DNA of 64,000 nucleotides, taken from positions 1,240,001 to 1,304,000 of the forward strand of contig CAUYUJ010000001.1 of NCBI GenBank assembly GCA_963575745.1, read 5' to 3'. Position numbers and translations under genes: made by a program. Within the stretch, counting starts at the first letter, position 1. Every line of letters begins with the position of its first letter. Below the pieces are notes generated by a model. The model saw nothing but the letters and a program-made list of their open reading frames with translations. It did no database searches and was not told the origin of the DNA. Of the stretch, positions 2,718-28,076 are shown in pieces. Origin of the DNA: Prorocentrum cordatum. Its lineage: Eukaryota.

Positions 2718-2784
<67 letters not shown>

Positions 2785-2927: not shown

Positions 2928-2967
<40 letters not shown>

Positions 2968-3182: not shown

Positions 3183-3221
<39 letters not shown>

Positions 3222-3530: not shown

Positions 3531-3559
3531 TAAAAAAAAATCCCCCCCCCCGCTGTCCA

Positions 3560-5474
3560 ACAGGTCGACGAGGGCCCGACCGTAAGCGGCCGCCGGTTAC
3601 CTGACGAGGCGGCGATCACGCGAACGCTCACCCGCGCCGCTCTGTGGACTCGCGCCAGCAATGCCCCGAGCGCAGAATACCTCCGACTCGTGGCGCGGCT
3701 GCGGCTCGAGGGCGTGGCAGCGGGTGACAAGTACCACGCGTACCAGCACGTGGAAGACGTCACTTTCCTGGCGGCGCGCTGCGCGCGGCATTTCGATGCG
3801 CTGGACTTTGGGGCGCCTCTGGGCGGCTTGGGGATGCCCAGCTCCTGCGCGCTCCTCGTCGACGGCGCGCCTGTCGGGGGGGGGGGGCGCGCGCGGGCGG
3901 CACGGCAACGTCGAGGTGATATGCCTGAGCTCCGTGAGCCCGCGCACGCACCGCTTGCATTCTTAGCTCGCCGGCTGGTGGCCCCCCTCCGCGGGCCACG
4001 GAGGCGACGCCCCAGCGGTCGGAGCCCTGCAGGCTTTGGAGCACTCGCCTTTGGCACTGAAGCTACCCGAGTTGCGAGCGCGGCTGACGCTCGCGGCGGG
4101 CGACGGGGCCGCGGTCCGCGGGTGGCCCGACCGGGCGAACCCGGCACAGGCGCCGCAGACATTAGATGGGGCATTGCCCATCCCCGGGCCGGCGGGCCCC
4201 GAGTCAGCGCTGCGGCCGCGCCCGGGCCGCCCGAGTCCGCGCTGCCCCGCGCGACTACCGTCGCCATCTGCACAGAGTCGGACAAGATGCATCGAGAAGA
4301 TATCGCCATGGCGCGCGCGATTAAAGGGACACCCATGGCAGAAGAACTTTTCTTGCTCGCCAGCATGATGGACAAAATGTTCCACCTGGGCGATGGAAAC
4401 GCGCTTCTGCGGACAGCAGCGCAGGAGGCTGGCGCGGTGACCCTTCGGAGTGCGCGAATGCCGGGCGGCGCGCGCAAGGCAGTGGCCTTGACCCGAGAGC
4501 CTGGCCACCTCCTCGACAATTTCCAGGCATGCGCCAACGGCTTGCGCTCGAGGGACAAGTGGCGCCGTCGCAACAAGACCGCAACGCACAGCGCCAATGC
4601 CTCGGTGGACGCAGGTCGGCGACTTACGGCAGTGGAGTTCGCGGCGTTTGCCCTTCTGTTCCACGACTGCACGCGCCGGGCGGCGGCGCCGTGGACTGCG
4701 GTCGCGCAGAGCGAGGCTTCGAGCCATGGGTCCTGGAGGCGCACAAACGCAGACGCGAGATATGTCTGCGCGCAGCCCTTTCCGCAGCGCGGCGGCTTCG
4801 AGAGTTCGCCCGCGTCGCGGTGCCACTCTGCCAGCGCGCAACGCCGGGCGAGCGGCGGCGCCTCATGGAAGCCGCCTTCCACGCCAAGCCGGGCGATTTC
4901 TTCCAGGTCGACGGCTGCGACGACAGCGCTCAGCACCAGTGGGGGGGATTGTTCCTTACGTTTCTGTCGGCGCTGCCCGCGCTTCTGCGCGGGGGGCGCC
5001 CCCACTTTCCAGAACTTGGAGTTGGCGCGTGCCCCTGCGCCACCCGGGCAGGAGCACCTGCAACGTCTCGGGCCCCATTGCCAACGCAGCTTCGTGGCGA
5101 GAAACACGCACGGGCGGCTACTCTGGAAAGGGAGGCCGCGCCAGGTGCAGATGCCTTGCTGGGTGGCCACTGCGCAGGCAGGCGGGGCCAAGCCGCTCCC
5201 CGATTCCAGGCCCGACGGCGAGCGAAGGGGCGCAAGCCGGGGGGGGGGGGCAGCGTCGCCGTTTTTGGAGGCTCGCGCCCGTCCGCTTCCACTACCGGGA
5301 CCCCGCGAGCCGGCCGCCCCCGGGCGTGGACATGGCCGGCAAGTTTCGCAATCGCTTTCACCAAGTGCAGGTGCCAGGAGGTGGGTTGGGTCGGGTGGGT
5401 CGCTGCCAAGCGCCGCGCGGGCTGCCGCTCGTCCTCGGCGACGCGGACGCCGGGCTTGCGGCCATCGAGGGCTA
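3560..5474 (+). pseudogene. 5' part of a decayed hAT-like transposase gene, interrupted by the 22.6-kb element
   Basis: Frameshifted protein-like segments (LRLEGVAAGDKYHAYQHVEDVTFLAA, ELFLLASMMDKMFHLGDGNALL, …GDADAGLAAIEGY) that continue in frame at 28077. Confidence 0.6.
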
Positions 5475-5690
5475 CCTGGGGAATCCAATTCTCCGGCGCG
5501 TCATCAAAATTTTGACACGTGCACCCAATTTTTCGACACGGTGCTCAATTATATGACACGTCTGTTTTATGACACATCCTGGTGTGGTGGTTTTGTTCGC
5601 CGGGTGGATTTATGAACCGGGCATCGCTGTGATGTTTGCCGGGCACGATTTACGCTACATCGCCGGCCCGTGTATCATAAAACCAAAGGT
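5475..5690 (+). repeat. Left TIR plus subterminal repeats of the 22.6-kb element
   Basis: CCTGGGGAATCCAATTCTCC followed by TTTTGACACG, TTTTCGACACG, TATATGACACG, TTTTATGACAC and an inverted GTGTATCATAAAACC (~5670-5684). Confidence 0.85.
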
Positions 5691-6642
5691 GTGGGTCTCC
5701 TCGGTGGCGCGTAGCTTGCTTTTGTCGTCCCGTGTTGCTCGGCTTGCGGATTTTGTGCTGTCGGTTCTTTCGGTTGCGCTCTCCCTTGCGCTACGTGTTG
5801 TTGTTTTTTCAAGGCCCTGTGCCTCAGTTTGCCGCCCGATGTGTGCAGAAAAAATCTTCCTCTTGTCCTCCTTCGCCTCGCCCCCCCCCCTCACCTCCTC
5901 GCGTCGTTCTCGTCGTCGAAGGATTTCCAGGGTAATCCAAGGGCTTCCAGGCGCCCAAGGATCCGAGCGTTTTCATTGAAAGATTTCCAGGGACTCCAGG
6001 GAGGACTCAAGGAAGTCCAGGGATTCCAGGGATTCCAGGAGGACGGGGACAGAAGAGGGAGGAGAAAGGAGGAGGAGGAGGAGGAGGACGAGGAGGAGGA
6101 GGGAGGAAAGGAGAAGAAGGTGAAAAGAAAAAGAGAGGAGGAAGACGACGACGATTCCGTCGCCCGTCGCATCGAGCTCCCCGCCCCGCCCCGTGGGCCC
6201 CGGGCCGCGCGCGGCACCGCCACGCCGGCGCAAATGAAGCTTGGATGGCTGGTGCGCCCCCCTCCCTCGCGCGCGCCCGCGCGCTTGCAATTGCGATCGA
6301 GGGGAGGAGAAGGAGCAACAGCAGGAGAGAGGATGAAGGAGGAGGAAGAGGAGGAGGAGGAGGAGGAGGAGGAGGAGGAAGATAAGGAGGAGAAAGAGGA
6401 GGAGAAAGAGGAGGAGAAGGAGGACGAGGGGAAGGAGGGAGGAGGGACGACTTGAAGGCAGAGGTTTCAGAAACGCCCAGAAATAATATGCGGGGGGGGC
6501 CCAGGATCCCATGAAAAGAACGGCGTTAGCTTCAAGACGCGCCCCGAAAGTATCAAAAGAAGCTCGCCCCCCGCCCACCCACCCGCCCCGCTCCCAACAC
6601 CGCGCCGAACTTTTGGTCCCTCACCCACTCCCTTCATAACTG

Positions 6643-6704
<62 letters not shown>

Positions 6705-6917
6705 CTCTCTCGCTCCAATTGTATTCTCGCTATCCCTTCATCTCTGCCCGCCCCATCCCACTCTGCCCCTACTCACTCCTTCCCTCCCTCCCACCCCTCC
6801 CACCGTTTTCATTGCCATGGCCATTTTTTGTTCAGGGCCATCGTGCTAGATATGATGATGCCAATCATCGCGTTTGTATTGTCCGTGCTTCTCATTCCAT
6901 ATTATCTCATCGCCCCG

Positions 6918-8112
6918 ATGGGGCGCGTTAAGTGCAGCGATGTGAGTTGCGATGACATGAAAACTGTTATCAAAAGTGTTTGGACGTCTATGGACCACGA
7001 TCGGTGCCGCAAGACTCATCGATTCTTGAACTACGAGAAGCCATCCAAAAAGAGCGGATACTCGTGCCAGGATGCTGCCAAAAATGATGCGATCGTGATG
7101 ACTGCTCTGATTAAGCTCAGCCCGTCCGCCCCGCCATACAAGCCCGAGGTTATGAAGTGTCTCAAGGTTCTGAACGATGACCTCGGAAAAACGTTTAGGG
7201 ATCCAGACACGGGCCTGAACAACTGGGCTGATGGTCAGGCCGAGGACCCGCGGGCGGAGACGAAGAGGAGGAAGAGGAGGAGGAAGAGGAGGAGGAAAAG
7301 AAGGGGGAAGAGGAGGAGGGAGAGGAGGAGGAAAGAAGGAGGAGGAAAAGGAGAGAGGAGGAGGAGGAGGAGCAGGAGGAGGAGGAGGAGGAGGCGGAGG
7401 AGGACGTTGAGGATGAGGAGGGCGAGAAGGAGGAGGAGGTTTCGCCCCAGCAGGAGTTGCTCAAGTTGTGGCGGATGATTCTGAAATGGCCCAAGCGCGG
7501 GGAGACGTCAAAGACCCCGTGGTTAAACGAGATCAAGCGGATGAGGCGGGAGCTCATCGGCGACGATGATGATGATGAAGACGATGCAGAGGAGTCCCCG
7601 GGCATAACGTCCGCAGCCTCCATGCATTCTCCCAGGAAGGCCCCGAGAAGGGCCACGACTTGAAGCCCTGGGCCCTGAGAGGAGCCCCTTATACGTCCTC
7701 CTTCCCCGCATCACCCTCCCCCTCCCCTTCCCGCTTCGGCGCTTGCAGGTTAAGCCGACGCGGGAAGGAGATGGAGGACGATGCTGAGGAGAAAGATGAA
7801 AACCCCATCCTCTCTCGCGACTTGCTCGTATCCGTAACAGGACTCCCAGCCCGTCGGCGACTCCCAGACCGTCGGCGACTCCCAGTGCGTCGGCGACTCC
7901 CAGCCCGTCGGCGACTCCCAGCCCGTGCCCGTCGGCGACTCCCAGCCCGTCGGCGACTCCCAGCCCGTCGGCGACTCCCAGCCCGTGCCCGTCGGCGACT
8001 CCCAGCCCGTCGGCGACTCCCAGCCCGTCGGCGACTCCCAGCCCGTCGGCGATAGCAAAGACTCGGCGCGGTACGATGGCTGCAACATCGAGGACAACGT
8101 GCATACCCTCCA

Positions 8113-8147
<35 letters not shown>

Positions 8148-10717: not shown

Positions 10718-11419
10718 GAATCTGTTCACGTGCATCTCGCGCGGTCTGCACTCTGGGGAGCATACATATAACAACCACAGAAAATTAAGTCGAACATGCA
10801 TTGACAGGGTGGGAGAGGCTGAGAAGAATGACGAGGATGAGGAGGAGGAGGAGGAAGAGGAGGAGGAGGAGGAGGAGGAGGAGGGACAAGGACGATCAGG
10901 AGCACGAGAACGGAATACGAAACCGAAGCTGAATCCAGGGGCTGCGAAAGCAATTCAGGCTCGAGAGGTCAGCACCCAGATGACGTCTCGACGCGAGGGG
11001 GGGGATACGCCAACTGCCAAGCGGAATCGCGATGGAGGCGAGCAGGATTGCGAGGAGCCCCCGATTTCGAAAATACCTCGTGCTCCCCGGGCTGTCAATA
11101 AGCTGCTGTTCGTGCTCGCGCCGTTGCTGGCGTTGTTAGAGTCCGATGCTAGCCCGGTGCAAATAGAGGAGCTGGCGGATCAAAACACGATCTGCCGAGC
11201 TCAGCCCTGTCTGCATTGCGATACGGTGGGGGGTGGCATTGGCTAAAGAAACGTTCCTGAAAGCCAGACCTTGGCGTGCCTGGCGGAACCGCGAAGCGGG
11301 CGGCCCGCGACGGGCCGCCCGTCTTTCCCGAGACCCAAGGTTCATTATCCAAACTGTCTTTACCCAATGCCTCCACCGTAAGCCAGGCCTCCATAGTGCA
11401 TGTATACATACCCTCCTCC

Positions 11420-12600
11420 GAGGACCTACGAGGAGTGGAAGTATTTAGTGGGGTGAAGTCGGTATGCAATGGATTTCAGTTTCTCGGCATGCCCTGTGCC
11501 GCCATCGATAAGACATACTCACTCGACAACGATATCCTTACTGCAGCAGGAGCCTGTATAAACGCCCTCTTCTTCAGAGACTGAGAAAGAAGGAGGAGGA
11601 GAAGGAGAAGGAGGAGGTGGGGAATCGAGTGGGAGCTAGGGGGAGACCCCCGTCCCCTCCCCACGACCAGGATTCATGACAATACTACAAACGATACGGC
11701 GGCTCCGTCCATCAAGCCTCACCTGGTGGGCGCCGCCGCGCAGCACGCGGGTGTATATGAGTCGTGGCAGCACACAGCGGAGATCTGGGAACCAAGCGTG
11801 GTCGGGGGTACTGACGACGACGACGACAAGTACGAAGGCGAATGTGAACACGAAGACGAACACGAAAACGAGTCCATGTTTGAGGAATGTTATGTTTATG
11901 TTCTCGCCTCTTAGTTGCTTCGGCCCAGGACCACCGATGACCCAGAGGGTGATACATCTATCGAGTGCGTTAGGGACGCGAATCGGCTGATCGCGAGAGT
12001 TCTCGTCTTGGTGGAATTGGCAGTTATTTGGGGTCACTACTGGATTCTGGAGCAGCCTGTGTCGTCCTTACTTCGAGAGTACCCACAATTCACAAGGACC
12101 GTATCACTCAAACAAACATGATCCCTATAAGTTAATTTCCACGGGGCCCAATCATGATGCCACCCCCTGCCCACAAATCTTGAGATGACGCCCTCAGGAA
12201 ATTCAAGCGTCTCGGAGCGAAGTACACGTTCTTGTGGATGAAATCATATGGAGCCGACAGCCCCAAAGGGAGTGCGCTTTGGGGGAATGCTCCCTACTTG
12301 GAGAAACTGAGTACCCGGCTGCCTAAATCTGAAATACGTTCCGATCCCAGTTTAGATATAACTCGATACTACATGGACTCTCGTGGTGACATGAAAACGA
12401 CTGGTGGGTCAGGACTCAAACCTACACAAGCATACCCCCCAGAGCTAGGGCTAGAAGTTGCGCTGCTACATCGCGAGTTGCTTCAGAATGGCCCGTCTTA
12501 TTTCGAGCAGAAGCGTGATGAACACGACGGGAGTGACCACGACGACTCAGCATCTGACAGTTCGTACTCGTGTATTGATGATCTGGTCTGCATGCAGTGA
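11420..12600 (+). CDS. C5 cytosine DNA methyltransferase-like gene (spliced; catalytic PC appears mutated to PR). Probable extra 5' exon(s) at ~10800-11230
   Basis: Spliced product DLRGVEVFSGVKSV (motif I) … NDILTAAG/FMTILQTIRRL…WWAPPRSTRVYMSR (motif IV) … HYWILEQPVSS (motif VI) … WMKSYGADSPK … LKPTQAYPPELG (motif X-like). Introns ~11550-11670, ~11780-11928 and ~12098-12197 have GA-type donors and AG|G acceptors. Confidence 0.72.
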
Positions 12601-12641
12601 CTGATGTAGCTGCGCTCAAATAAGTTTTGGGCTCTGCTGTA

Positions 12642-12811
12642 GGGCGACGAAATCTATACATATCCACTGCCCCCAGGCCAGGCCCATCCTCAACCCCGCA
12701 GCGGTGTATACGCCACGCCCTCCTGGCTTGGCCAGGAGGGCGCATGCCCAGCTCCTGGGTTCAAGATGGCCATGGTCAAAGAGCAGTGGATATGTATAGA
12801 TTTCGTCGCCC
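12642..12811. repeat. 170-bp unit bounded by a perfect 29-bp inverted repeat (MITE-like or hairpin)
   Basis: GGGCGACGAAATCTATACATATCCACTGC (12642-12670) and its exact reverse complement (12783-12811). Confidence 0.9.
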
Positions 12812-13379: not shown

Positions 13380-15750
13380 TATCTCAGTCGGCCTCGTTAA
13401 AAAGACCCAGGAATGTTTCAATTCAGTGTTTGATCTCCCTAAATAATGTTGCATACGTCTGTCGGCCCCCATAAAGAGCCCCAGGAATTGTTCGGCCTCC
13501 TTAAAGAGCTCCAAGACTGATTCACTTCAGCTTTTGAATGTCTGTCGGCCTCCTAAAATAACCTCCAGGACTGTTTCGATTTAGTTCCCAACCATCCTGT
13601 GGTGTTGGGCTTTCGTTTTGAAGAGACGGCCCCCGCGTTCCTCCTCTTCTCCTCCTCTTCCCCCTCCTCCCTCCTCCCATCAGCATCATCATCATCATCA
13701 TCGTCATCATCATCATCATCGTCATCAGCATCATCAGCATCATCACCATCATCACCATCATCATCATCATCATCATCGTCATCACCCACCATCATCGTCA
13801 TCACCACCATCATCGTCACACCTCTCACACGTTTCGTGGCCCCGTAGGGAGCTCCACCGAAGGCCCCAGTGCTGCCGCCCGCATGCGTCAGCCACACCCA
13901 ATTCGGCATACCCCTCACACGCTTCGTGGCACCATAGGGAGCTCCACCGAAAGCACCAGAGCTGCCGCCCGCATGCGTCAGCCACACCCAGTTCGGCACA
14001 CCCCTCACACGCGTTTCGTGGCCCCATAAGGAGCCCCACCAAAGGCCCCAGCGCCGCCGCCCGCATGCGTCAGCCACGCTCAATTCGGCACACCCCTCAC
14101 ACGTTTCGTGGCCCCATATGGAGCTCCACCGAAGGCCCCAGTGCTGCCGCCCGCATGCGTCAGCCACACCCAATTCGCGCACACCCCTCACACGCTTCGT
14201 GGCCCCATAGGGAGCTCCACCGAAGGCCCCAGCGCTGCCGCCCGCATGCGTCAGCCACACCCAATTCGGCACACCCCTCACACGTTTCGTGGCCCCATAG
14301 GGAGCTCCACCGAAAGCCCCAGCGCCGCCGCCCGCATGCGCCAGCCACACCCAATTCGACACACCCCTCACACGCTTTCGCGGCCCCATAGGGAGCTCCA
14401 CCGAAGGCCCCAGCGCTGCCGCCCGCGTGCGTCAGCCACACCCAGTTCGGCACACCCCTCACACGTTCCGTGGCCCCAGAGGGAGCTCCACCAAAGGCCC
14501 CAGTGCCGCCGCCCGCATGCGTCACCCACACCCAGTTCGGCCCCTCACACGCTTCGTGGCCTCATAGGGAGCTCCACCGAAGGCCCCAGTGCCGCCGCCC
14601 GCATGCGTCAGCCACACCCAATTCGGCATACCCCTCACACGCTTCGTGGCCCCATAGGGAGCTCCACCGAAGGCCCCAGTGCTGCCGCCCGCATGCGTCA
14701 GCCACACCCAATTCGGCACACCCCTCACACGCGTTCGTGGCCCCATAGGGAGCTCCACCGAAGGCAGCAGTGCCGCAGCCCGCATGCGTCAGCCACATCC
14801 AATTCGGCACACCCCTCACACGTTTCGTGGCCCCAGCCCGCATGCGTCAGCCACGCCAACTTCGGCACACCCCTCACACGGTTCGTGGCCCCTCCACCTA
14901 AGGCCCCAATGCCACCGCTCGCATGCGTCCGCACACCCATTTCGGCACCCCCACCAAACACAGCGTTTCGTGGCCCCACAGGGACCTCCACCTAAGGCTC
15001 CAGTGGTGCCGCCCGCATGCGTCACCCCCACGCCAGCACAGCATGTCGTGGCTCCATAGGGAGCCCCACCTAAGGCCCCAGTGGTGCCGCCCGCATGCGC
15101 CACCCCCACCCAGCACAGCGCTTCGTGGCCCCACGGGGAGCCCCACCGACGGCCCCAGTGGTGCCGCCCGCATGCGCCACCCCCGCCCAGCACAGCGTTT
15201 CGTGGCCCCACAGGGACCTCCACCGAAGGCCCCAGCGGTGCCGCCCGCATGCGTCACCCCCCACCCAGCACAGCGCGTCGTGGCCCCACAGGGAGCTCCA
15301 CCGAAAGCGGCACCCACAATGCGATATTCACAACTGCACATGGTTGGGTCCTTCGCCAGGATAAGTTTTGGAATTCTGTCGGCCTCCTTAAAGAACTCCA
15401 GCATTTGTTCAACTCAGTTTTGGATTTATGTCGGCCTCCTTAAAGGGCTCCAGGGTTTGGGAGTTCTGTCGGCCTCGTTAAAGAACACCAGTATGTTTTC
15501 AATCCAATGTTGGACTTCTGTCGGCCTCCTTAGCGAGCGCCAAGATTTATCAACTCAGTTTTAGATTTATGTCGGCCTCCTGAAAGAGCTCCAGCATTGT
15601 TCAATTCAGTTTTCGATTTCTGTTAGCCTCCCTAAAGAGCTCCAGCATTTGTTCAACACAGTTTTGGATTTCTGTCGGCCTCCTTAAAGAGGTACAATAA
15701 TTTCAAACTCAGTTTTCGATGTTTGTCGGCCTCCTTGAAGAGCTCCATGA
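13380..15750. repeat. Degenerate ~50-bp tandem repeat (TCTGTCGGCCTCCTTAAAGAGCTCCAG…) split by a satellite element
   Basis: Units at 13380-13575 and 15370-15750 on both sides of the 13585-15362 insertion. Confidence 0.8.
13585..15362 (+). mobile_element. Non-autonomous satellite-bearing element, copy 1
   Basis: Head TTCCCAACCATCCTGTGGTGTTGGG…TTTTGAAGAGACGG, a microsatellite, ~90-bp tandem units (GGGAGCTCCACCGAAGGCCCCAG…CGCATGCGTCAGCCACACCC…) and tail ATGGTTGGGTCCTTCGCCAGGAT. Confidence 0.8.
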
Positions 15751-15762
15751 TTTTTACATGTA

Positions 15763-16271
15763 TTCCCGACCATCCTGTGGTGTTGGGTCCTCGTTTTGAA
15801 GAGACGGTGCCCCGTGTTCCTCTCCTCTCCTCTCCTCTCCTCCTCTTCCCCCTCCTCCCTCGTGCCCGCGCCCGCATGCGTCAGCCACATCCATTTCGAC
15901 ACACCCCTCACACGCTTCGTGGCTCCATAGGGAGCTCCACCGAAGGCCCCAGTGCTGCCGCCCGCATGCGTCAGCCACACCCAATTCGGCACACCCCTCA
16001 CACGCTTCGTGGCTCCATAGGGAGCTCCACCAAAGGCCCCAGAGCCCGCGCCCGCATGCGTCACCCACACCCATGTCGGCACACCCCTCACACGTTTCGT
16101 GGCTCCATAGGGAGCTCCACCGAAGGTCCCAATGGGTGTGCCCGCATGCGTCCCGCACACCCATTTCGACGCACCCCTCGTACTTTTCGTGGCCCCGTAG
16201 GGGGCTCCACCGAGAAGATGTTCACGATTGCAGTATTCACAATTGCATATGGTTGGGTCCTTCGCCACGAT
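15763..16271 (+). mobile_element. Non-autonomous satellite-bearing element, copy 2
   Basis: Same head, 90-bp units and tail as copy 1. Confidence 0.8.
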
Positions 16272-16329
16272 ATTGTTGTGAAAAAAGTACAGAAACAAAA
16301 ACAACGATACTTTCAAAATCAGTTGTTTG

Positions 16330-16865: not shown

Positions 16866-16883
16866 TTGAATTCCATCGACTAT

Positions 16884-17030
16884 GGCATAGCGTGGAATAG
16901 CGTGGAATATCGTGGAATATCGTGGAATCCCGTGGAATCCCGTGGAATTCCGTGGAATTCCGTGGAATCCCGTGGAATCCCGTGGAATCCCGTGGAATCC
17001 CGTGGAATCCCGTGGAATCCCATGGAATCC
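16884..17030. repeat. 10-bp minisatellite (CGTGGAATCC)n
   Basis: Directly visible. Confidence 0.95.
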
Positions 17031-18124: not shown

Positions 18125-21100
18125 ATGTTAAATCCAGATTCAAACGCCCCTGCTACTCGCGCAGAGATGGCCGCGTCCAAGGTGCCGTCGCATGAGATCA
18201 TGCTGGTGGATCAGGCTTCGGGCGACGCGTTCGAGCTGGAACTGCTGGAGACTGAGACGGTGGGAGACCTTCAAGAGAACATCAAAAAAGAGCTCGCGCA
18301 GGATGAGCTGCCTCTGATTTTCTTCCCCCACTCCAATGGGAAACCGCACACCAAGAAGGGCAGCAAGGTGATCGCCACGTTCAAGCCTGATTGCACTGAA
18401 CGGGCCATCATCTTCAAGCTGGCAAAGCCGCCCGACTGGAAGTTCGAGAAGATGCCTCACATGACCGCCCATGGAGTCCTTCTGGAGCAGCAGGTCAAGA
18501 TCGAGCAGGAGGCGACCCAAGCGTCCGCTGCTGCTGTTCCTGGGCCCGTCGTCGCTGCTGAGGGGGCCGCTCCTCAGGCGGCCGCTCCTGGGCCAGTCGC
18601 AGCCGCCACTCCTGAGGAGGCCGCTCCAGCTGAGGCCGCTCCAGCTGAGGGAGCTCCAGCTGAGGAGGCCGCCCCAGCTGAGGAGGCTACTCCTGAGATG
18701 GCCCCTCCTGCAGCCGCGGCCGCTCCTGTGCCCGCTGCCCCTGACGCGATCGCTCCAGCTGAGGAGGCTACTCCTGAGATGGCCCCTCCTGCAGCCGCGG
18801 GCGCTCCTGTGCCCGCTGCCCCTGACGCGATCGCTCCAGCGGTGACGGCCACTCCTACAGGAGCTACTGTGGATGCGCGCGCGGAGGACACGTTGCCGGA
18901 CGTCTTGGCCACGCCTGCGTCTCCAGCGGCGACCGAACCTGAGGAAACGCTCCCTGTCGACATCCCTGTGCAGATCCCTGCCCAAGACCCACAGCCTGCC
19001 ACGACACCTGCCGAGGACGACGACACCGAAGCGTTCTGCTACGAGGACCCCTACGCCTCCGAGCACAGCGACGGCGCGCACATGGACGACTCCCAGCTCG
19101 TGGGCGACAGCGACGTCGAGATGGACGACGCTGAGTTCCAGGACGCCTTCTTGCGTGTCTCCCTGCTGCAGGCTGCTAGCGCCACGCCCCCCGTGCTGGC
19201 GTCACCGGCGCTCAAGCCTCCCGCGGATGAGACCCCGAGCACGGAGATGATCGAGCCCGCGTCCACAGCCGCGGGGACCCCGACCAAGCAGCTGATCGTA
19301 CACGAGCCCGTGTCCACAACCAGGGAGCCTCCTCAGAAGCGGATGCGCGCCGCGTTCGCTGGGACCGATCAGGCAGCGGCTGCAGTACTGGCGAAAGTAG
19401 GCGTGACGGACCTCGCCGTGTACCAGCCCCCCACGGCAGAGGACGAGGCCAAGGCTGAGAGGAAGAGGGAGCTCGCCAGGCTGGGCAGGGCGGTCCAGGC
19501 TGCACCTCCAGAAGTGCATTGGGGATCCAAACCACTATCCACCCCTCCTCCGCCTCCTCCTTTCCGTGATCCTCCTCCTCCTCAATATCCACCTCCTCCT
19601 CCTCAGGAGGAGGAGGAGGAAGAGGATGGAGGAGGAGGAGGAGGAGGAGGAGGAGGAGGAGAAGGAGGAGGAGGAGGAGGAGGAGGAGGAGGAGGAGGTG
19701 CAGCAGCAGCAGCAACAACAGCCAGCGGGATGCTCGAAGGTCGCCCGCCTCCCTCCCTCCCTCCCTCCCCCCCTCACTCCTCCCTCCTCCTCCTCCTCCT
19801 CCCTCCTCCCTCCTCCCTCCTCCCTCCTCCCTCATCCCTCCTCCCTCCTCCTCCCTCCTCCCTCCTCCTCCCTTCCTCCCTCCTCCCTCCTCCCTCCTCC
19901 TCCCTCCTCCCTCCCTCCTCCTCCCTCCTCCTCGTCCTCCCTCCTCCTCCGCCTCTTCCTCCTCAACCTCATCCTCCTTTGTTCCCAACCATCCTGTGGT
20001 GTTGGGTCCTCGTTTTGAAGAGACGGTGCCCCGCGTTCCTCTCCTCTCCTCTCCTCTCCTCTCCTCCTCTTCCCCCTCCTCCCTCGTGCCCGCGCCCGCA
20101 TGCGTCATGCGTCACCACACCCATTTCGGCACACCCCTCACACGTTTCGTGGCTCCATAGGGAGCTCCGCCGAAGGCCCCAGTGCCCGCGCCCGCATGCG
20201 TCACCCACACCCATTTCGGCACACCCCTCACACGTTTCGTGGCTCCATAGGGAGCTCCACCGAAGGCCCCAGTGCCCGCGCCCGCATGCGTCACCCACAC
20301 CCATTTCGGCACACCCCTCACACGTTTCGTGGCTCCATAGGGAGCTCCACCGAAGGCCCCAGTGCCCGCGCCCGCATGCGTCACCCACACCCATTTCGGC
20401 ACACCCCTCACACGTTTCGTGGCCCATAGGGAGCTCCACCGAAGGCCCCAGTGCCCGCGCCCGCATGCGTCAGCCACACCCATTTCGGCACACCCCTCAC
20501 GCGTTCCGTGGCCCCATAGGGAGCTCCGCCGAAGATCCCAGTGGGTGTGCCCGCATGCGTCCCGCACACCCATTTCGGCACACCCCTCACACGCTTCGTG
20601 GCCCCATAGGGAGCTCCACCGAAGGCCCCAGCGGGTGTGCCCGCATGCGTCCCGCACACCCATTTCGACACATCCCTCGTACGTTTCGTGGCCCCGTAGG
20701 GGGCTCCACCGAGAAGATATTCACGATTGCAGTATTCACAATTGCATATGGCTGGGTCCTTCGCCAGGATATGTTTTGGCGTTGCTCTTCTTATCCCCCA
20801 AGGTGGTTGCCAAGTACTTTCGCGAGAGGCGGAACCAGAGGCTCCTCGGCTGCTTCCTGGAGATGTGGAAGGAAGATCCCAGCTGGGGTTCTTTGCAGGT
20901 GCGCGAGAGCAAGCGGATCGCGCATCTCCAGACTCAGACTCGGAGGTACAGGTGGATGATGGAGTGTCAGCTGCTCAAGGAGTTCCCAGACGAGGAGTAC
21001 GTGCATCATTTGATGAAGAGCAAGCTGGCTACGAAAGGTATGCACAAGCCCAACCCCGAGGCCCCGAAAGAACCCAAATGGTCCCTTGTCAAAATCTTCG

Positions 21101-21765
21101 AGGACGAGATGACGGACACCAAGCAGCAGATCGCTGAAACGGCATGGGAACTCGACATCCCCGTGGGTGTTCATAGCAAGGAGCAGGCTGGCATTGTCGC
21201 CGCGGGGATGAAGCACCTTGTCTTGGAGAGCACCGAGACGTGCAATCCAGAGGACTGGGCGGAGGAAGAGCCTGCAGGTGATGACGGCTCTCATGCTGAG
21301 GGCACGGGCAAGGGGAAGGGCAAGGACAACGACCGCAGGAAGCGCCGCCGTGGGCACGACGAGGGCGGCGCAGGGACTACGCCCACCGCCAGGCCTACCA
21401 AGGGCAAGGGCAAGGGCAAGGGCAAGCCGACCCTGAAGAACAGCGACGGCAACCTGGACGAGAAGGCGGCGCTTGCATTCATCAAGAAGCTTGCCGGAGA
21501 TATCGCTGAGGCCGACGCGAACGCAGCGAAGGCCAAGGGGATCAAGGTCATTGGCATGGAGATCTCCAAAGCTACCGAGGAGAGCGCTGAGAATCTCAAA
21601 TCAATGAGGGAGGATATGAGCAAGCAGGTTGGCGCTGGTGACCACGTGGCTTTCTTCGCTACCTACGAGAAAGCGAAGGGCCTTGTGACCGAGTACTACA
21701 CTAACCTTGGGCTGGTGGTCAAGAACACTCCGAAGAAGCCCAAGGTAGAGTCCAAGACGGACTGA
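18125..21765 (+). CDS. Two-exon gene (18125-19513, 20803-21765): ubiquitin-like N-terminus, Ala/Pro/Glu-rich linker, globular domain and Lys-rich coiled C-terminus (transposon cargo)
   Basis: GT donor at 19514 and AG acceptor at 20801-20802 join …RAVQAAPPE to VVAKYFRERR… in phase 0. FELELLETETVGDLQENIKKEL resembles a ubiquitin-fold signature. GC3-rich codon usage. Stop at 21763-21765. Confidence 0.78.
19982..20771 (+). mobile_element. Non-autonomous satellite-bearing element, copy 3 (inside the intron of 18125-21765)
   Basis: Same head and tail. Near-identical 90-bp units (ACACCCCTCA at 20131, 20221, 20311, 20401). Confidence 0.85.
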
Positions 21766-23174
21766 TCAACTGGTGATTCTTGGGTTCTGGGAAGGCGAGC
21801 GCATCCCGCTGGGTCCTGCGGCACATGCACGGGGAGTGTGAATGTTGCGAGCAGGAATGCACTTGGATGTCAGCGCCAAAGCACTTGCAATTTACCACGA
21901 GGATGTTTGCTGCGAAGCAAAATCGTTACCCTTCTTCAGTCTCGTCCTCCTCCATCTTCGCCCCCTCCACGCCCTATGTGTGATTCCCTTCCTCCTCCTG
22001 TCCTCTATCCTGCTCCCTCTCGTTCAACCCGCCATCTTGCTACACGCACCTTCCTCCTGCCCTTCCTGAGGCCGCCGCATCCTGGAACATCGCGCTTTCT
22101 ATAAACATGCTGGTCCTCGGAACCATTCGACTCGAGTCGGGAGCTCAGAGGCCCCCCCCGGCCTCATACGAAGAAGGAGCAGGCGGAGGAGGATAAGGAG
22201 GAGGAGGAGGAGGAGGAGGACGAGGAGGAGGAGGAGGAGGAGGAGCATGAGGATGAGGAGTGGGAGGGGGATGGAGGAGGAGGAGGAGGAGGAGGAGGAG
22301 GAAGAGGAGGGGAGGAGGAGGAGGAGGAGGAGGAGGAGGAGGAGGCGGAAAGGGGGAGGAGGAGTAGGAGGAGGAGAGAGGAGGAGGAGGAGGAGGAGGA
22401 GGAAGGAGAGGGAGGAGGAGGAGGAGGAAGAGGAGGATGATGAGGATGAGGAGGAGGAGGAAGAGGAGGAAGAGGATGAGGATAGCAGATTCCTGCTGCC
22501 CCCCCATTTCGTGAGGCCGTTGCGTCCTTGATCAATCCGTTTTCGACGACCTCCCAGGGCCTTCGAGGGAAGAGCAGCATGAGGACGAGTATGGCAGGAG
22601 GAAAAGAGAGGATGGAGGATGAGGATGAGGAGCAGGAGCAACAGGAGGAAGGATGAGGAAGGAGGAGGAAGGAGGAGGAAGGAGGAGGAGGAGAAAGAGG
22701 AGGAGGAGGAGGAGGAGGAGGAGGAGGAGGAGGAGGAGCTGCAGCAGCAGCAGCAGCCAGCGGGATGCTCGAAGGTCGCCCGCCTCCCTCCCTCCCTCCC
22801 TCCCCCCCTCACTCCTCCCTCCTCCTCCTCCTCCTCCCCGGCGGCATCGCACAGTCAGTGAAAGACTTGAGAGGGCTTTGCGAGGATGTAAGGGAGGAGG
22901 AGGAGGAGGAGGAGGAGGAGGAAGAGGAGGAGGAGGAGTAAGACGATGTCACAACGATAGCGGAGAGAACTGCCGCGCCCCCGCAGATGCACCTGTACCC
23001 GAGCTTCAACAACACTTCCTTTTTCGCGGACCAGGGAAATGCCGTGCTGCTGGTTCGAAGCGAGGGCCCAAGCCTCGCAAGTTGTCTTTGCGAGAATGTC
23101 CTGTTGCCAAGGACTGCACGATGGAGTGAACGCTGAAACCTTCAGACCAGAGGCGTAGCACTTGCCCGACGCAT

Positions 23175-24977
23175 ATGCCCCCAGTCGAGCTTGGGGCATC
23201 ATGGGCGGGTGCTGCGCTTCAGGGCTATCGGATTCAACGTTCGCCCATATGCCATTTCCAGGAAATCTATTTCGACTATCTCAAGGGCGTCTAGTCTGCA
23301 GAGACTGTTCGGAAGCACGCATACGCAAATGTGCTTAAGTATGGTGAGGCTGCTGCTGGCCCGAGTCTAGTTGCTCTTTCTAAGTTAGGAGACTCTGGAA
23401 AATATATTGGAAATGTAGAGCGAGATCTTCACAAACTTGAGATCCCAGAGGATGAGGTGGTGCCCGTTCCAGAACCCTTCTTTATCACATTGACTGCCAA
23501 GCATCCGAGCAAATTGGGGGCAACAGAAATCGAGCTGCCTGCATTGATGCCGCATGAATGGCTGGCCGCAATACACGCAGGAGGACAAAAGCTGTTCGAA
23601 TACATTTTGGTTGACAGCCAACTCTCTCTTGAAGAATACTGGGCGCACGAGTCGACATTCCCCCATCATTTGCAACATCCTGATTGCAGCAGTGGTAATT
23701 TCAGACGCTCTATACCCTGTATTTTCCATGGGGACGACGCGGGTGCGTTCAAGAAAGAGAAGTGTTTGCTTGTTCAGTTCAGAAGCTTTCTTTGCGATAA
23801 CACAACGATAGACAGCAATCTCATCATTGCAATCTTACCCTACACCTTGATTCTTGACACCGTGACGCTGCCACAACTGTATACGTGGATTGCTTGGTCA
23901 TTTGTGTGGGCAGGCAGGGGGGTGCATCCTTCGATGGACCCGTTCGGTAATGAGTTGACAGGTTGGCGAAAACAAGCAGGTGACAAACGAACTCCTCTTG
24001 CTGATGGGTGGAAACTTGCTTTCGGAATGCAGACTGGGGATTGGAAATGGTTGAAGGAAACGTTTGGTTTCCGGGCGTACGGTCACGAGAAATGTTGCCA
24101 TCGTTGCATTGCCAGTAAGAGCGACCCAGCAACCATCTACACGGATCACAGTCCGACTGCAGGATGGCGTGGGCATCGAGTGACAGATGCTGAATACAAG
24201 CGTGAGGTTGCAAATAATCAAAAGCTCAATGCCATGGTGACGGTCCCTGGATGGGTTCTTGAAAAAGTGTGGGTGGATGAATTGCATGCTGCGTCGCAGG
24301 GGCACGGCTCGCGTGCAGTAGCGAATATCTTAGTGTTTCTTTGCGAAGAAGAATATTATGGATCAGGGGGCATGTCTTTGAGGTTTGCGTCAATGTACGA
24401 CGACTATCGGAAATGGTGCAAATCAACTGGCAAAAATAGCTGGTGCGAGAAATTCAATGAAAATACGCTTGGCTACAGAGCAAAATTCATAGTCCTGGCG
24501 TCCAAAGCAGCTGACTGCCGGGACGCTGCCACGTACGCTTGGGAGTCCTGTCGAAAATACTTGCATGACAAAGAAGATGACAAAAGTAAACACGTGTACA
24601 GTGTTGCCTGGGGATTGTGCAGATTTCATCAGTTGTGTAAAACTAGTGGTAAGTACCCTACTCAGAACGAATGCGATTCTATGGTAAGAGCTGTGCGTGC
24701 AACACTTTTGAATTTCAATGCGATGAGATTGCTACATCCTGATTCTCGGTACTGGAAGCCGAAACCGAAAGATCATCAGTATTTGCATCTGGGAGAGGAT
24801 TTCGTTGCCGTGTTCAGAATAAACCCTCGCTTCTTGGCTTGCTACAAGGAGGAGGATAACATCAGAATTTTCAAATCTATGGTACGACATCTGCAGAGGG
24901 TAACTTTGTGCATTCGTTTCATTGTGCACTATAGGGCGGCGCTCGAGGGGGCGGGAGGATGGAGATGGTTTCTTTGA
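23175..24977 (+). CDS. CMC (CACTA/Mirage/Chapaev)/Plavaka-like DDE transposase, intronless, with one in-frame TAG at 23292-23294
   Basis: 548-aa ORF with FHGDDAG (D1), TGDWKW (D2), CHRC [C(2)C], VDELH [LH], PKDHQYLH [H(3)H] and YKEED (E), matching the CMC-type DDE signature order. The frame is open upstream to ATG 23175 except for one TAG. Confidence 0.8.
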
Positions 24978-25734
24978 AAGCTGGGCACCTTTCGCGTCCG
25001 CCCGAAGGTGCCCAGCTTTCTTCTATAAGAAACCCTTCCTCTCCTCCCCCATCCTCGACGCGCCGCCGAACATGTTCAGCGCATTGCTTTTCGATGGGCG
25101 GACATTCGCCGAACGCTTTGACAGGGGTCATGTTTGGAAAAAACAAATCCCCAACACCAGAATCTGGAGGCCACCAGAATCTTGGAATCTGAGAGAGTCT
25201 CCGGGAGGCTTCGAGGTGAGGCAAGCGTGGGCCCCAACCAGTGAATTAAGGGAGAACGCCTTTGCAAGAGGGGCAGGTAATTCAAAGTGCAACCACTGCT
25301 TGGAGAATTTCTTACAAGCTCTGATTTGCCTCCTCCTCCTCCTCCTCCTCCTCTTCCTCCTCCTCCTCCTCCTCCTCCTTCTCCTCCTCCTCCTCCTCCT
25401 CCTCCTCCATCCTCCCTCCTCCCTCCTCCCTCCTCTTCTCCTTTTTCCTCAATCCTCCATCTTCCCTCCTCCCCCTCAACCTCCTCCTTCTCCTCCTCCT
25501 CTGGTTCCTCCTATTCCTCCATTTCCTCCTCCTCCTCCATTTCCTCCTCCTCTTCCTCCTCCTCTGTTTCCAAGTGCCACGCAGTACCTACCGTGACGGT
25601 CTTGTCTGAAGATGTCTTGCGACCAAGTTGCGGGTGGGAGGGTGGGATGTTTGCACGAGCAGTGGAGAGGACAGTGGAGAGGACAGCTCCAAGACAGTCG
25701 AAGTGGGTTTCCTCCTCTTACTCCTTTAGGAGCA

Positions 25735-25872
25735 GGGCTTCGCCCCCTCCGCTGATCACCGATCGCAGATGCAATCGGTGATATGAAGTAATACACGGCT
25801 TAGCCCCGCCGCCGACGTTCTTAGGAGCAGGGCTTCGCCCTTTCGCCGATCACCGATTGCCTTTGCAATCCG

Positions 25873-25917
<45 letters not shown>

Positions 25918-26005
25918 ACGCGGCTCTGCCTGTCATCCGACGCCCTTAGCAACAAGGCTTCGCCCCCTCTGCTGATCACCGATTGCAATTGCAATCGGTG
26001 ATATA
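25735..26005. repeat. Three palindromic units GGCTTCGCCC…ATCACCGAT…TGCAATCGGTGAT
   Basis: Includes a perfect 28-bp palindrome ATCACCGATTGCAATTGCAATCGGTGAT at 25975-26002. Confidence 0.85.
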
Positions 26006-26344
26006 TCCGACGTCCTCAGGGCTTCCGCCCCCTCCGCCGACTTGAACGAGGGAGGGAGGAGTGAGGGGGAGGAGGAGGAGGAGGAGGAGGAGGAGGAGGA
26101 GAAGAGGAAGAGGATGAGGAGGAGGAGGAGGAGGAGGAGGAGGAGGGAGGATGAGGAGGAGGAGGAGGAGGGGGAGGAGGAGAAGGAGGAGGAGGAGGAG
26201 GAGAATGAGGAGCAGAAGCAGCAGCAGCAACAACAACAGCAAGAAAAGGACGCGGAAGAGAAGGAAGAGGAGGAGGAGAAAGAGGAGGAGGAGGAGGAGG
26301 AGGGAAATGAGGAGGAGGAGGAGGAGGAGGAGAAGGAGGAGGGG

Positions 26345-26645
26345 AATTCTTCACGCTTCGCGTATCCCCACCAGCCCATCTCAAAACAGCAACGCTTGCG
26401 AACCATGCCGACAATCGTGTTTTTCAGGCGTGTGTCCGCTTGCCCCCGCATTTCCTCCTTCCTCCCGCCTCCTTGTACATCCTCCTTGTGGTAGGAACGG
26501 GAGAAGGACGAGGCGGAGGAGGAGGGAGAGAAAGCGGTGGGAGGCAAGAGGGATTTAGCGGAGACGACGACCACAACGATGATCCTAACAACGACGACGC
26601 ACCCGACGACGACGACGAAATCGACCGCAACGACGACGACGACCA

Positions 26646-26699
<54 letters not shown>

Positions 26700-26707
26700 A
26701 GGCGGCG

Positions 26708-26741
<34 letters not shown>

Positions 26742-27785
26742 TCGGGACGACGACGACGGACGACTGACGAGGTGTTGGAGTCGTTCGGGCTCCTCGTGGT
26801 GTGAGTCGTTCGGGCGCCTCGTCCTGGTGTGAGTCGTTCGGGCCCCTCCTTCCTGGTGTGAGTCGTTCGGGCTCTTCGTGGTGTGAGTCGTTCGGGCCCC
26901 TCGTCCTGGTGTGAGCCGTTCGGGCTCCTCGTGGTTTGAGTCGTTCGGGCCTCTCGTCCTGGTGTGAGTCGTTCGGGCCTCTTCTTCCTGGTGTGAGTCG
27001 TTCGGGCTCTTCGTGGTGTGAGTCGTTCGGGCTCTTCGTCCTGGTGTGAGTCGTTCGGGCTTCTCGTGGTGTGAGTTGTTCGGGCCCCTCGTCCTGGTGT
27101 GAGTCGTTCGGGCCCCTCCTCCTGGTGTGAGTCGTTCGGGCTCCTCGTGGTTCGAGTCGTTCGGGGCCCTCGTCCTGGTGTGAGTCATTCGGGCTCCTCG
27201 CGGTGTGAGTCGTTCGGGCGCTTCGTAGTAGTAGTAGTAGTAGTAGTAGTGGACGCCTTTGGGGGCGTCTTGGGTGCCTCTTGGCGGCCCCAGGGGCTTC
27301 TAGGAACGTCTTGGGTGCCTTGGGGGAGCCTCTTCGGGCCTCTTGGGAGCCTCTTGGAGGCCGTGGCGGGCGTCTTGGGGGCCTCTTGGCGGCTCCAGGG
27401 GCTTCCAGGAACGTCTTGGGTGCCTCGGGGGAGCCTCTTGGGGCCTCTTGGGGGCCTCTTGGGGGCCTCTTGGGGGCCTCTTGGAAGCCTCTTGGGGCCT
27501 CTTGGGGCTCTTTGGGGGGTGGTCTGGGAGGTATATGGGGGCCATCTTTCGGGCGATCGATCACAACTGCATGGGGCGAGCACTTTTCTGCCTCCCCCCG
27601 TCGGGGCCAGAATCCTCGTGAGGGGTGTCGAATTTTAGTCCTCCCAGGGATAGAAAAAGTACCCTCTGACCACCCGCGAAACCCCCTCTCCAGGTCCAGG
27701 GGGAGGGGGTAGGGAGGGGGCAAACCCCTCCCCGAAGGGGAAGAGCTCGCTAAACCACTCACGCCCAAAGGGCTGGTGGGATTTT
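26345..27785. mobile_element. Probable non-autonomous repeat element with internal tandem arrays
   Basis: CCCACCAGCCC near the left end and GGGCTGGTGGGA at the right end. Contains (GAC)n, TGGTGTGAGTCGTTCGGGC tandem units and GCCTCTTGGGG units. The right-end motif recurs at ~37236-37270 and ~62545-62570. Confidence 0.55.
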
Positions 27786-27819
27786 TAAGGATGGAAAAAT
27801 TCGGAGGAGGAGGATCGCA

Positions 27820-28074
27820 GTCCGGCGAACACACCGAAAGTCCGGCGAACACACCGAAAAGTCCGGCGAACACACCGAAAAATTGAATGCAGTCCGCCGA
27901 AATTAGCGATCGCATTCAAAAATAAGCCTCGCTCCGGCTCACCCATGACCAGTTCGCCGGGATGTGCTGAAAATTTGAGCACGTGTCCGGCGAGCCGGGT
28001 TTTATGATACACTCCGGTTTGCCGGACCATGTGCTATAATTTATGACACGCCCTGGGGAATTTGATTCCCCAGG
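27820..28074 (-). repeat. Right TIR plus subterminal repeats of the 22.6-kb element
   Basis: Three copies of TCCGGCGAACACACCGAAA (~27821-27880), then GGTTTTATGATACAC, TTTATGACACG and the terminal hairpin CCTGGGGAAT-TTG-ATTCCCCAGG (28052-28074). Confidence 0.85.
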
Positions 28075-28076
28075 TA

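What the first reader, a model, noticed from the sequence alone, without database searches (positions are those of the whole stretch)
5473..28076. 22.6-kb gene-carrying DNA transposon with precisely recoverable ends, inserted into another transposase gene
Seen: TA|CCTGGGGAATC…GATTCCCCAGG|TA ends lie 22,600 bp apart, with shared subterminal repeats. Deleting 5475-28076 gives GCC ATC GAG GGC TAC AGT GGG TGC CTG ATG GCG GCA GAG (AIEGYSGCLMAAE), fusing ORF 4597.. with ORF 28090.. in frame, which independently supports the boundaries and a 2-bp TA duplication. Inside are a DDE transposase, a DNMT-like gene and at least two spliced unknown genes, all on the + strand. Established: CMC-superfamily elements make 2-4 bp TSDs and have subterminal repeats. 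Inference: this is a large cargo-carrying CMC/Plavaka-type transposon family, possibly undescribed as a unit in this lineage.
Basis: partly seen in the sequence, partly recalled or inferred. Interest (0 to 1): 0.95.

Follow-up and report, generated by a model that had tools for sequence, protein, structure and literature searches.

The report
Large RAG1-like DNA transposon copy
A 22.6-kb stretch bounded by matching inverted ends holds a cut-and-paste transposase with the same fold as the RAG1 recombinase; it is a real but fairly ordinary mobile element, and the claim that it split another transposase gene does not hold up.

Summary
The two ends exist as described: TA|CCTGGGGAATC at 5473-5485 and GATTCCCCAGG|TA at 28064-28076. 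The exact repeat alone is at chance level. The pairing is convincing for three other reasons. The inverted repeat extends imperfectly to about 45 nt. Two subterminal motifs occur almost only at these ends; GTTYGCCGG matches 7 of 7 times within 255 nt of a terminus. GC content breaks sharply at both junctions.

Inside, a 600-codon gene (23175-24977, +) encodes a DDE transposase. It has no Pfam match, but its model aligns to the RAG1 core (Z 16.4) and to Transib. [quoted passage not shown] This copy has an in-frame TAG at codon 40.

Not supported:
- The in-frame fusion proves nothing, because 2 of 3 frames stay open across the deletion.
- No hAT or other transposase domain lies in the flanks.
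- No tool confirms the "DNMT-like" gene.
- TA is palindromic, so it may be a duplication or part of the repeat.

I found only this one copy, held no genome and could lay no reads, so mobility, the TSD and the cargo status of the other four ORFs are inferred.

The parts
5473..5474 (.). TA flanking the left end: a candidate 2-bp target-site duplication, or an extension of the inverted repeat because TA is palindromic
5475..5519 (+). Left terminal inverted repeat: 11 nt perfect, about 45 nt imperfect
5504..5683 (+). Left subterminal repeats: TTTTGACAC / ATATGACAC / TTATGACAC at 5510-5575, the inverted copy at 5672-80, and GTTYGCCGG at 5595 and 5634
6852..7250 (+). ORF core of 133 codons (MMMPIIAF...) with coding-like GC1-3 of 0.50/0.39/0.65; no family match
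11402..12600 (+). Candidate spliced gene in pieces at about 11402-11554, 11702-11815, 11915-12100 and 12184-12597. Only a motif-I-like FSGxxS stretch aligns to C5 methyltransferases, and not significantly
13813..15305 (.). 90-bp and 77-bp satellite arrays; related arrays lie at 15868-16213 and 20106-20712, and outside the element at about 58.9-60.5 kb in inverted orientation
18125..19516 (+). Long ORF segments (MLNPDSNA... to ...AAPPEV) with strong GC3 bias (0.75-0.80); no family match
20947..21765 (+). 272-codon ORF end (YRWMMECQ...KVESKTD) with GC1-3 of 0.58/0.40/0.77; no family match
23175..24977 (+). Transposase gene of 600 codons with TGA stop. RAG1/Transib-like DDE enzyme with D147, D249, C268, C271, H494, H498 and E520 (numbering of the 560-aa ORF 23295-24974)
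23292..23294 (+). In-frame TAG at codon 40 of the transposase gene, at a position that is a sense residue in four homologues
27819..28049 (+). Right subterminal repeats: three perfect 20-21-nt units AGTCCGGCGAACACACCGAAA (which hold GTTCGCCGG on the - strand), GTTYGCCGG at 27952 and 28017, and TTATGAYAC at 28002 and 28041
28030..28074 (-). Right terminal inverted repeat; it contains an internal palindrome CCTGGGGAAT-N3-ATTCCCCAGG
28075..28076 (.). TA flanking the right end

Best explanation
Window 5475-28074 is one copy of a cut-and-paste (class II) DNA transposon, sitting at a TA dinucleotide in GC-rich host DNA.

Its transposase is a compact, roughly 600-aa RNase-H-fold DDE enzyme. [quoted passage not shown] That places it in the CMCT clade (EnSpm/CACTA, Mirage, Chapaev, Transib, Plavaka, ESTA, Lanisha).

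Inferred mechanism: transposase multimers bind the subterminal GTTYGCCGG and TTATGACAC repeats and the 11-45-nt terminal inverted repeats, pair the ends, cut the element out, and reinsert it with a 2-bp staggered cut at TA.

This copy is probably disabled, or depends on other copies, because its transposase gene has a TAG at codon 40. The four further + strand ORFs and the satellite arrays (39% of the interior) travel inside the boundaries. It is not shown whether they are family accessory genes, captured cargo or later insertions.
For: SHOWN
- Ends and TA.
- Extended TIR, and its rank among 602 inverted 11-mer pairs.
- Motif confinement: GTTYGCCGG 7 of 7 hits at the two ends, with 0 of 100 shuffles reaching 7; TTATGACAC 6 of 9 hits at the ends.
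- A GC break at both junctions, with equal flank GC of 0.73 on both sides.
- No smaller TIR pair around the transposase gene.
- The transposase is a real protein family: 1947 representative clusters at E<=1e-3 and 690 at <=1e-10.
- The AF2 model has pLDDT 93.2.
- Foldseek ranks RAG1 first (E 4e-7), with BbRAGL, Transib and P element lower.
- VIA-align gives RAG1 Z 16.4 (428 aligned, rmsd 4.7, model 1-560 against RAG1 477-1004), BbRAGL 14.4, HzTransib 13.6 and P element 11.7.
- Residue conservation among the 152 stored hits: D147 138/139 covered, D249 144/144, C268 144/144, C271 142/143, H494 103/103, H498 96/102, E520 99/99.
- Spacings D-102-D-19-C-3-C-223-H-4-H-22-E match mouse RAG1 D600-108-D708-19-C727-3-C730-207-H937-5-H942-20-E962. 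The RAG1 residues come from PMC4914335 (passage read).
- The CMCT definition, its 2-5-bp TSDs and the TA-TSD lineage ESTA come from PMC12730594 (passages and supplementary table rows read).

INFERRED
- The catalytic assignment rests on spacing and fold, not on a residue-level superposition.
- The binding sites and the mechanism are inferred.
Against: - Only one copy was seen. There is no second copy or solo end in the remaining 41 kb.
- No genome is held and no reads could be laid. Mobility, the TSD and the empty site are therefore untested.
- TA is self-complementary, so it may be part of the inverted repeat rather than a duplication.
- The termini are CC..GG, not the CA..TG that most CMCT elements have (PMC12730594).
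- No Pfam transposase family matched the protein or any of 50 aligned homologues.
- The extension score of the TIR is only a little above the best unrelated pairs: 23-25 against 21 and 20.
- The transposase gene has a premature stop.
- Satellite DNA related to that in the interior lies outside the element too, so part of the 22.6 kb may be secondary.
Confidence: 0.72

Rival explanations
1. The ends and the transposase gene belong to a much smaller ancestral element. Most of the 22.6 kb (satellite arrays, low-complexity tracts and some or all of the four extra ORFs) arrived later through nested insertions and repeat expansion. On this reading it is a bloated, decaying copy and not a 'cargo-carrying family'.
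For: - 39% of the interior is TRF-masked tandem repeat, against 17% outside.
- The 90-bp satellite and its 45-nt flank recur outside the element at 58.9-60.6 kb.
- The extra ORFs have host-like GC3 bias (0.65-0.80), while the transposase has none (0.53/0.43/0.50).
- The transposase has a premature TAG.
Against: - All five coding-like ORFs lie on the + strand, which would be unusual for random accretion.
- No internal TIR pair or second mobile-element protein was detected.
- CACTA-type elements are known to be large and to encode more than one protein (recalled, not checked here).
Confidence: 0.4
2. The two ends belong to two different copies or solo ends of the same family, and they bracket ordinary host DNA (a composite or macrotransposon arrangement). 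The 22.6 kb was then never one element.
For: - Only one copy was seen.
- The interior is heterogeneous in GC content (0.51-0.65 per 2 kb).
- Interior ORFs have host-like codon bias.
Against: - The GC break coincides with both termini, and both flanks have the same GC of 0.73.
- There are no further end motifs anywhere inside or outside.
- The ends are in correct inverted orientation with identical flanking TA.
Confidence: 0.1
3. The inverted repeat is fortuitous, and the RAG1-like gene is a host (domesticated) gene in a repeat-rich region. On this reading there is no transposon.
For: - Exact 11-13-nt inverted pairs are expected by chance in 64 kb; 602 pairs of 11-mers were found in unmasked sequence.
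- The protein family is large with conserved catalytic residues, which fits active transposons and domesticated genes equally well.
Against: - Two independent subterminal motifs are confined to the two ends.
- The GC breaks fall exactly at the repeat.
- The gene carries a premature stop.
- It lacks host-like GC3 bias.
Confidence: 0.08
4. An assembly artefact at one or both junctions.
For: - The region is highly repetitive.
Against: The junction sequences are unique and non-repetitive, and the two ends are symmetric.
Confidence: 0.05

Closest known systems
CMCT clade of DDE transposons (EnSpm/CACTA, Mirage, Chapaev, Transib, Plavaka, ESTA, Lanisha; Kojima 2025, PMC12730594)
   Same: [quoted passage not shown]
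- Short TSD, within the 2-5 bp range.
- TIRs with subterminal repeats.
- Multi-gene elements above 10 kb.
   Different: - The termini read CC..GG instead of the usual CA..TG.
- No Pfam model of any member family matches.
- Placement within the clade was not determined.
ESTA (EnSpm-like transposons with TA TSDs; fungal, Pucciniales)
   Same: - TA flanks.
- The transposase is recognisable as RAG1-like only by structure or profile methods.
- Large elements: the listed consensus sequences run from about 8 to 14 kb.
   Different: - ESTA consensus sequences start with CACCAC (supplementary table rows), while this element starts with CCTGGGG.
- The host is not a rust fungus.
- No TET/JBP gene was found.
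- No sequence comparison was made, because the ESTA sequences could not be entered into the tools.
Transib transposase / RAG1 core
   Same: - Whole-length fold match (Z 16.4 to RAG1, 13.6 to HzTransib).
- Near-identical spacing of the catalytic and zinc-binding residues.
- A compact protein of about 600 aa.
   Different: - Transib makes 5-bp TSDs and has CAC termini (recalled). Here the candidate TSD is a 2-bp TA and the termini are CCTGG.
- About 11% sequence identity.
- A profile of 50 homologues found no RAG1 chain in the PDB by sequence.
Mirage (CMC superfamily, 2-bp TSD)
   Different: Not compared at sequence level here.

Membership tests
[quoted passage not shown] | RNase-H-fold DDE transposase with three conserved acidic residues | tested here: met
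   Fold match to RAG1, Transib and P element. D147, D249 and E520 are conserved in 138/139, 144/144 and 99/99 covered homologues.
[quoted passage not shown] | [quoted passage not shown] | tested here: met
   C268-x2-C271 in 144/144 and 142/143 homologues; H494-x3-H498 in 103/103 and 96/102. The definition comes from PMC12730594.
[quoted passage not shown] | Target-site duplication of 2-5 bp | tested here: inconclusive
   TA lies on both sides. There is a single copy and no empty site, and TA is palindromic, so it could extend the TIR.
[quoted passage not shown] | Termini 5'-CA..TG-3' ('in most cases') | tested here: not met
   The termini are 5'-CCTGG..CCAGG-3'.
ESTA | TA TSD together with a RAG1-like transposase | tested here: inconclusive
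   Both features are present. The termini differ from the ESTA CACCAC, and no phylogeny or sequence comparison could be run.
Transib superfamily | 5-bp TSD and CAC..GTG termini (recalled definition) | tested here: not met
   Beyond the flanking TA, the next flanking bases do not match between the two sides, so there is no 5-bp duplication. The termini read CCTGG.
EnSpm/CACTA, Plavaka, KDZ (Pfam transposase models) | Match to the family's Pfam model | tested here: not met
   No Pfam family at E<=0.1, other than chance hits, for the protein or for any of 50 aligned homologues.
hAT transposase (claimed host gene) | hAT transposase or dimerisation domains in the flanking ORFs | tested here: not met
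   No Pfam match in the flank ORFs 4492-5472, 28078-29583, 3534-5612 and 3425-5500(-). None in 148 further ORFs of >=139 aa outside the element, where the only hit was FTR1 at 56379-57626. One flank ORF, 4325-5512 (+), was not scanned.
C5 DNA methyltransferase (claimed cargo) | PF00145 match; motifs I, IV (PCQ), VI (ENV), VIII and X in order | tested here: not met
   No Pfam hit on the exon ORFs, and none in the PDB or the protein database. hhalign of the joined pieces against a 5-sequence Dcm/phage profile gave score 17.9 and P 0.16, with 3 of 60 shuffles as high; only a motif-I-like stretch aligns. I saw no PCQ.

The most novel reading that the evidence does not exclude
The transposase stands for an undescribed lineage of the CMCT clade, distinct from ESTA, Mirage and Transib. 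It is a large family (about 1,900 clusters at 50% identity in public protein data) that no Pfam model recognises. It keeps the complete RAG1-type catalytic and zinc architecture in a compact 600-aa protein. It moves large elements with non-CA termini, TA duplications and a fixed set of accessory genes, including a degenerate methyltransferase-like protein.
Probability: 0.3. Interest if true: 0.6.

Novelty: new member of a known kind. Interest (0 to 1): 0.45.

Why it matters
RAG1 and Transib sit inside a wider clade of transposases, and that clade is still poorly sampled outside animals, plants and fungi. This is a well-delimited element from a GC-rich eukaryote. Its transposase is RAG1-like over its whole length, and it belongs to a large protein family with no Pfam annotation. 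It therefore adds a data point for how the RAG1-type active site and zinc module are distributed, and it offers a usable seed for annotating this family. The element itself behaves like known large CACTA-type transposons. Nothing here calls for a new kind of mechanism.

Tried and rejected
NO GENOME, READS OR ATLAS
- Whole genome: none is held.
- Reads: the look-up of sequencing runs listed 22 runs. Nothing was laid, so these shares say nothing about copies, expression, habitat or strain.
- Protein atlas: unavailable, or the sequences were not held.
- The listing of cluster members: the database was switched off.

SEARCHES FOR RELATIVES AND OTHER COPIES
- The search for homologous proteins found 2 hits with the single protein and 2 with the profile.
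- The search for related loci: the alignments had no conserved stretch to search with. The single protein found no relative in metagenome contigs. The viral-contig scans with the window ORF, P0003 and P0001 returned no locus.
- TIR pattern scan of metagenome contigs: 5 loci, all unrelated beyond 20-24 nt, so chance matches.
- Earlier findings of this scan: nothing.
- Flank paralogues or an empty site within the window: none.

MOTIFS AND OTHER FEATURES
- The TIR core TGGGGAATC is not enriched in the window (12 hits against 21.9 expected).
- Rfam and tRNA scans found nothing.

DNMT HYPOTHESIS
- See Membership tests. The genome search for PF00145 was not possible, so I built a small profile from E. 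coli dcm and four phage genes.

THE TAG-BEARING SEGMENT
- I considered whether the 72-nt segment that holds the TAG is an intron. The closest fragment, P0037 (70% identical), skips exactly those 24 codons. However, the boundaries would be GG..AG, and four other homologues read through the segment. I treat the question as open.

LITERATURE
- Two searches aimed at algal relatives returned nothing relevant: 'huxleyi' + 'EnSpm' + 'transposon' (2 unrelated papers, listing only) and 'CMC-EnSpm' + 'haptophyte' (1 unrelated paper, listing only).
- I cannot say whether Repbase already holds this family.
Full report
1. WHAT IS AT THE COORDINATES

The left junction reads ...GAGGGC TA CCTGGGGAATCCAATTC..., with TA at 5473-74. 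The right junction reads ...GATTCCCCAGG TA CAGTGGG..., with TA at 28075-76. The 11-nt inverted repeat is exact. The right end also holds a + strand near-copy at 28052-62, so that terminus is a small palindrome.

Read inward from each terminus, the two ends align over about 45 nt with two indels.

An exact 11-mer inverted pair is not remarkable in itself. After masking tandem repeats, the window holds 602 such pairs. This pair has the best 45-nt extension apart from pairs that flank satellite arrays, but the margin is small: 23-25 against 21 and 20. TA is also its own reverse complement. The flanking TA can therefore be read as a 2-bp duplication or as two more bases of the repeat.

2. WHY THE ENDS ARE STILL A GENUINE PAIR

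Three independent observations support the pairing.

- A first subterminal motif. TTATGACAC with up to one mismatch occurs 9 times in 64 kb, and 6 of those lie within 210 nt of a terminus.
- A second subterminal motif. GTTYGCCGG occurs 7 times, and all 7 lie 49-252 nt from a terminus: two on the left and five on the right, three of them inside a perfect 20-21-nt triple repeat. About 1.5 hits are expected by chance, and none of 100 shuffles reaches 7.
- A composition break. GC content changes exactly at the repeat: 0.76 outside against 0.45 inside on the left, and 0.53 inside against 0.70 outside on the right, in 100-nt windows. Both flanks are 0.73 over 200 nt.

No smaller inverted pair brackets the transposase gene.

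3. THE TRANSPOSASE

ORF 23295-24974 (+, 560 aa) is a real protein. An exhaustive phmmer search found 1947 representative clusters at E<=1e-3, 690 at <=1e-10 and 61 at <=1e-30, mostly 550-630 aa long. The word-indexed search found only two hits, at 35% identity.

Sequence libraries do not recognise it. Neither the ORF nor any of 50 aligned homologues matches a relevant Pfam family. A profile of the 50 homologues finds nothing in the PDB by sequence.

An AlphaFold2 model built on that alignment is confident (pLDDT 93.2, pTM 0.90). The fold searches gave these results:

- Foldseek ranks RAG1 core chains first (E 4e-7), with BbRAGL, HzTransib and the P-element transposase further down the list.
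- VIA-align gives RAG1 Z 16.4 (428 residues aligned, rmsd 4.7 A, model 1-560 against RAG1 477-1004).
- The other VIA-align scores are BbRAGL 14.4, HzTransib 13.6, P element 11.7, ISCth4 8.2 and Hermes 6.1.

The conserved residues fit a DDE enzyme with a zinc site. Among the 152 stored hits the counts, over the hits that cover each position, are D147 138/139, D249 144/144, C268 144/144, C271 142/143, H331 137/138, H494 103/103, H498 96/102 and E520 99/99.

Their spacing (102, 19, 3, 223, 4, 22) parallels mouse RAG1 D600, D708, C727, C730, H937, H942 and E962 (108, 19, 3, 207, 5, 20). The RAG1 residues come from PMC4914335 (passage read). I infer that D147/D249/E520 are the catalytic triad and that C268/C271/H494/H498 form the zinc site. 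I could not superpose coordinates, so this rests on fold and spacing.

4. STATE OF THIS COPY

The same reading frame is open from an ATG at 23175. It is interrupted once, by TAG at 23292-94 (codon 40), and ends with TGA at 24975-77.

The upstream 39 codons align with the N-termini of homologues, and four homologues have a sense residue at the TAG position. So this copy carries a nonsense change.

There is one oddity. The closest database fragment, P0037 (70% identical), runs from GAALQ straight to (D/S)(C/A)ETVR. It omits exactly the 24 codons that contain the TAG. An intron there would have GG..AG boundaries, so I leave this open.

The gene shows no GC3 bias (0.53/0.43/0.50), unlike the FTR1 host gene (pos1-3 of 0.51/0.36/0.71). 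Only one copy of the gene is in the window.

5. THE REST OF THE INTERIOR

Tandem repeats make up 39% of the element, against 17% of the rest of the window. They include 90-bp satellite arrays at 13.8-15.3, 15.9-16.2 and 20.1-20.7 kb. Relatives of those arrays, with a shared 45-nt flank, also lie outside the element at 58.9-60.6 kb in inverted orientation.

Four more + strand regions look coding by amino-acid make-up and GC1-3:

- 6852-7250
- about 11.4-12.6 kb
- 18125-19516
- 20947-21765

None has a Pfam match. I scanned 89 of the 90 + strand ORFs of >=70 aa that overlap 5400-28200 (not scanned: 4325-5512). I scanned all 105 - strand ORFs (4, 101).

By eye, and against motif definitions that I recalled rather than tested, I see an FSGxxS...G motif-I-like stretch and looser resemblances further on, but no PCQ. 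The formal tests fail:

- There is no homologue for the largest exon.
- There are no PDB matches for three exon pieces.
- hhalign of the joined pieces against a profile of E. coli Dcm plus four phage methyltransferases aligns only the motif-I stretch, with score 17.9 and P 0.16. Three of 60 shuffles score as high.

I therefore report this gene as unconfirmed.

6. THE CLAIMED HOST GENE

It is not.

- The flanks are 70-76% GC, and all three + frames are open up to the left junction.
- The removed length, 22,602, is a multiple of three.
- Two of three frames stay open across the joint, for 327+502 and 647+193 codons.

No hAT or other transposase domain is found in the flank ORFs. Outside the element the only Pfam hit is FTR1 at 56379-57626.

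GC by codon position does favour + frame 1 as coding at 28077-28376 and 28977-29576, but it does not favour that frame for most of the left flank. Whether a host exon was hit cannot be decided. The flanks have no paralogue in the window.

7. COMPARISON WITH KNOWN FAMILIES

Kojima 2025 (PMC12730594; passages and supplementary table rows read) groups EnSpm/CACTA, Mirage, Chapaev, Transib, Plavaka, ESTA, Lanisha and RAG1 as the CMCT clade. [quoted passage not shown] The paper also describes ESTA: fungal elements of about 8-14 kb with TA TSDs, whose transposases were recognised as RAG1-like only by HHpred.

The present element meets the catalytic-motif criteria, and its TA flanks fit the TSD range. 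Its termini (CCTGG) fit neither the usual CA..TG nor the ESTA CACCAC.

I could not place it by phylogeny, because reference sequences from Repbase or the paper's supplement could not be entered into the tools. It works like a CMCT transposon and is best filed as a member of that clade with its lineage undetermined.

8. VERDICT

The evidence offered for precision (the frame fusion), the target ('another transposase gene') and part of the cargo ('DNMT-like') does not stand.

Mobility, the TSD and the unity of the 22.6 kb all rest on one copy.

My confidence that 5475-28074 is one TIR-bounded CMCT-clade element is about 0.7. Interest is moderate. The useful new point is that a large family of RAG1-architecture transposases has no Pfam annotation.

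Noticed in passing
window 56379-57626 (+): This ORF matches the FTR1 iron permease family (PF03239, E 5.5e-23). It is the only Pfam hit among the scanned ORFs outside the element (148 ORFs of >=139 aa, plus the flank ORFs).
   Followed up: no
window 58848-60581 (-) versus 13492-15371, 15675-16273 and 19978-20779 (+): Related 90-bp satellite arrays with a shared flank (AACCATCCTGTGGTGTTGGG...) occur three times inside the element and once outside it in inverted orientation, at 64-67% identity (arrays inside the element are 72-91% identical to one another). They may be a separate repeat or mobile unit nested in the transposon.
   Followed up: partly
window 23223-23294: The closest database fragment of the transposase (P0037, 70% identical) lacks exactly the 24 codons that hold the in-frame TAG. 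This could be a deletion in that relative or an unconventional (GG..AG) intron.
   Followed up: partly
window 5475-5519 and 28030-28074: Both ends read as a 7-nt terminus (CCTGGGG), then a 23- or 25-nt spacer, then an A/T-rich 9-mer (CAAAATTTT / AAATTATAG). This loosely recalls the heptamer-spacer-nonamer layout of Transib ends and RSS. It may be coincidence.
   Followed up: no
window 2629-3034 versus 38690-39048: A second repeat family, 77-80% identical over about 300-350 nt, lies outside the element.
   Followed up: no
window 3000-3600: An A/T-rich island (GC 0.26-0.40) sits in otherwise 60-70% GC DNA, just upstream of the GC-rich left flank.
   Followed up: no
window 16891-17030 and 5913-6041: There are arrays of a 10-nt unit CGTGGAATCC (14 copies) and of TCCAGGGATTCCAGGG-like units. 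They resemble the TIR core (GGGGAATCC), but the core motif itself is not enriched in the window.
   Followed up: partly
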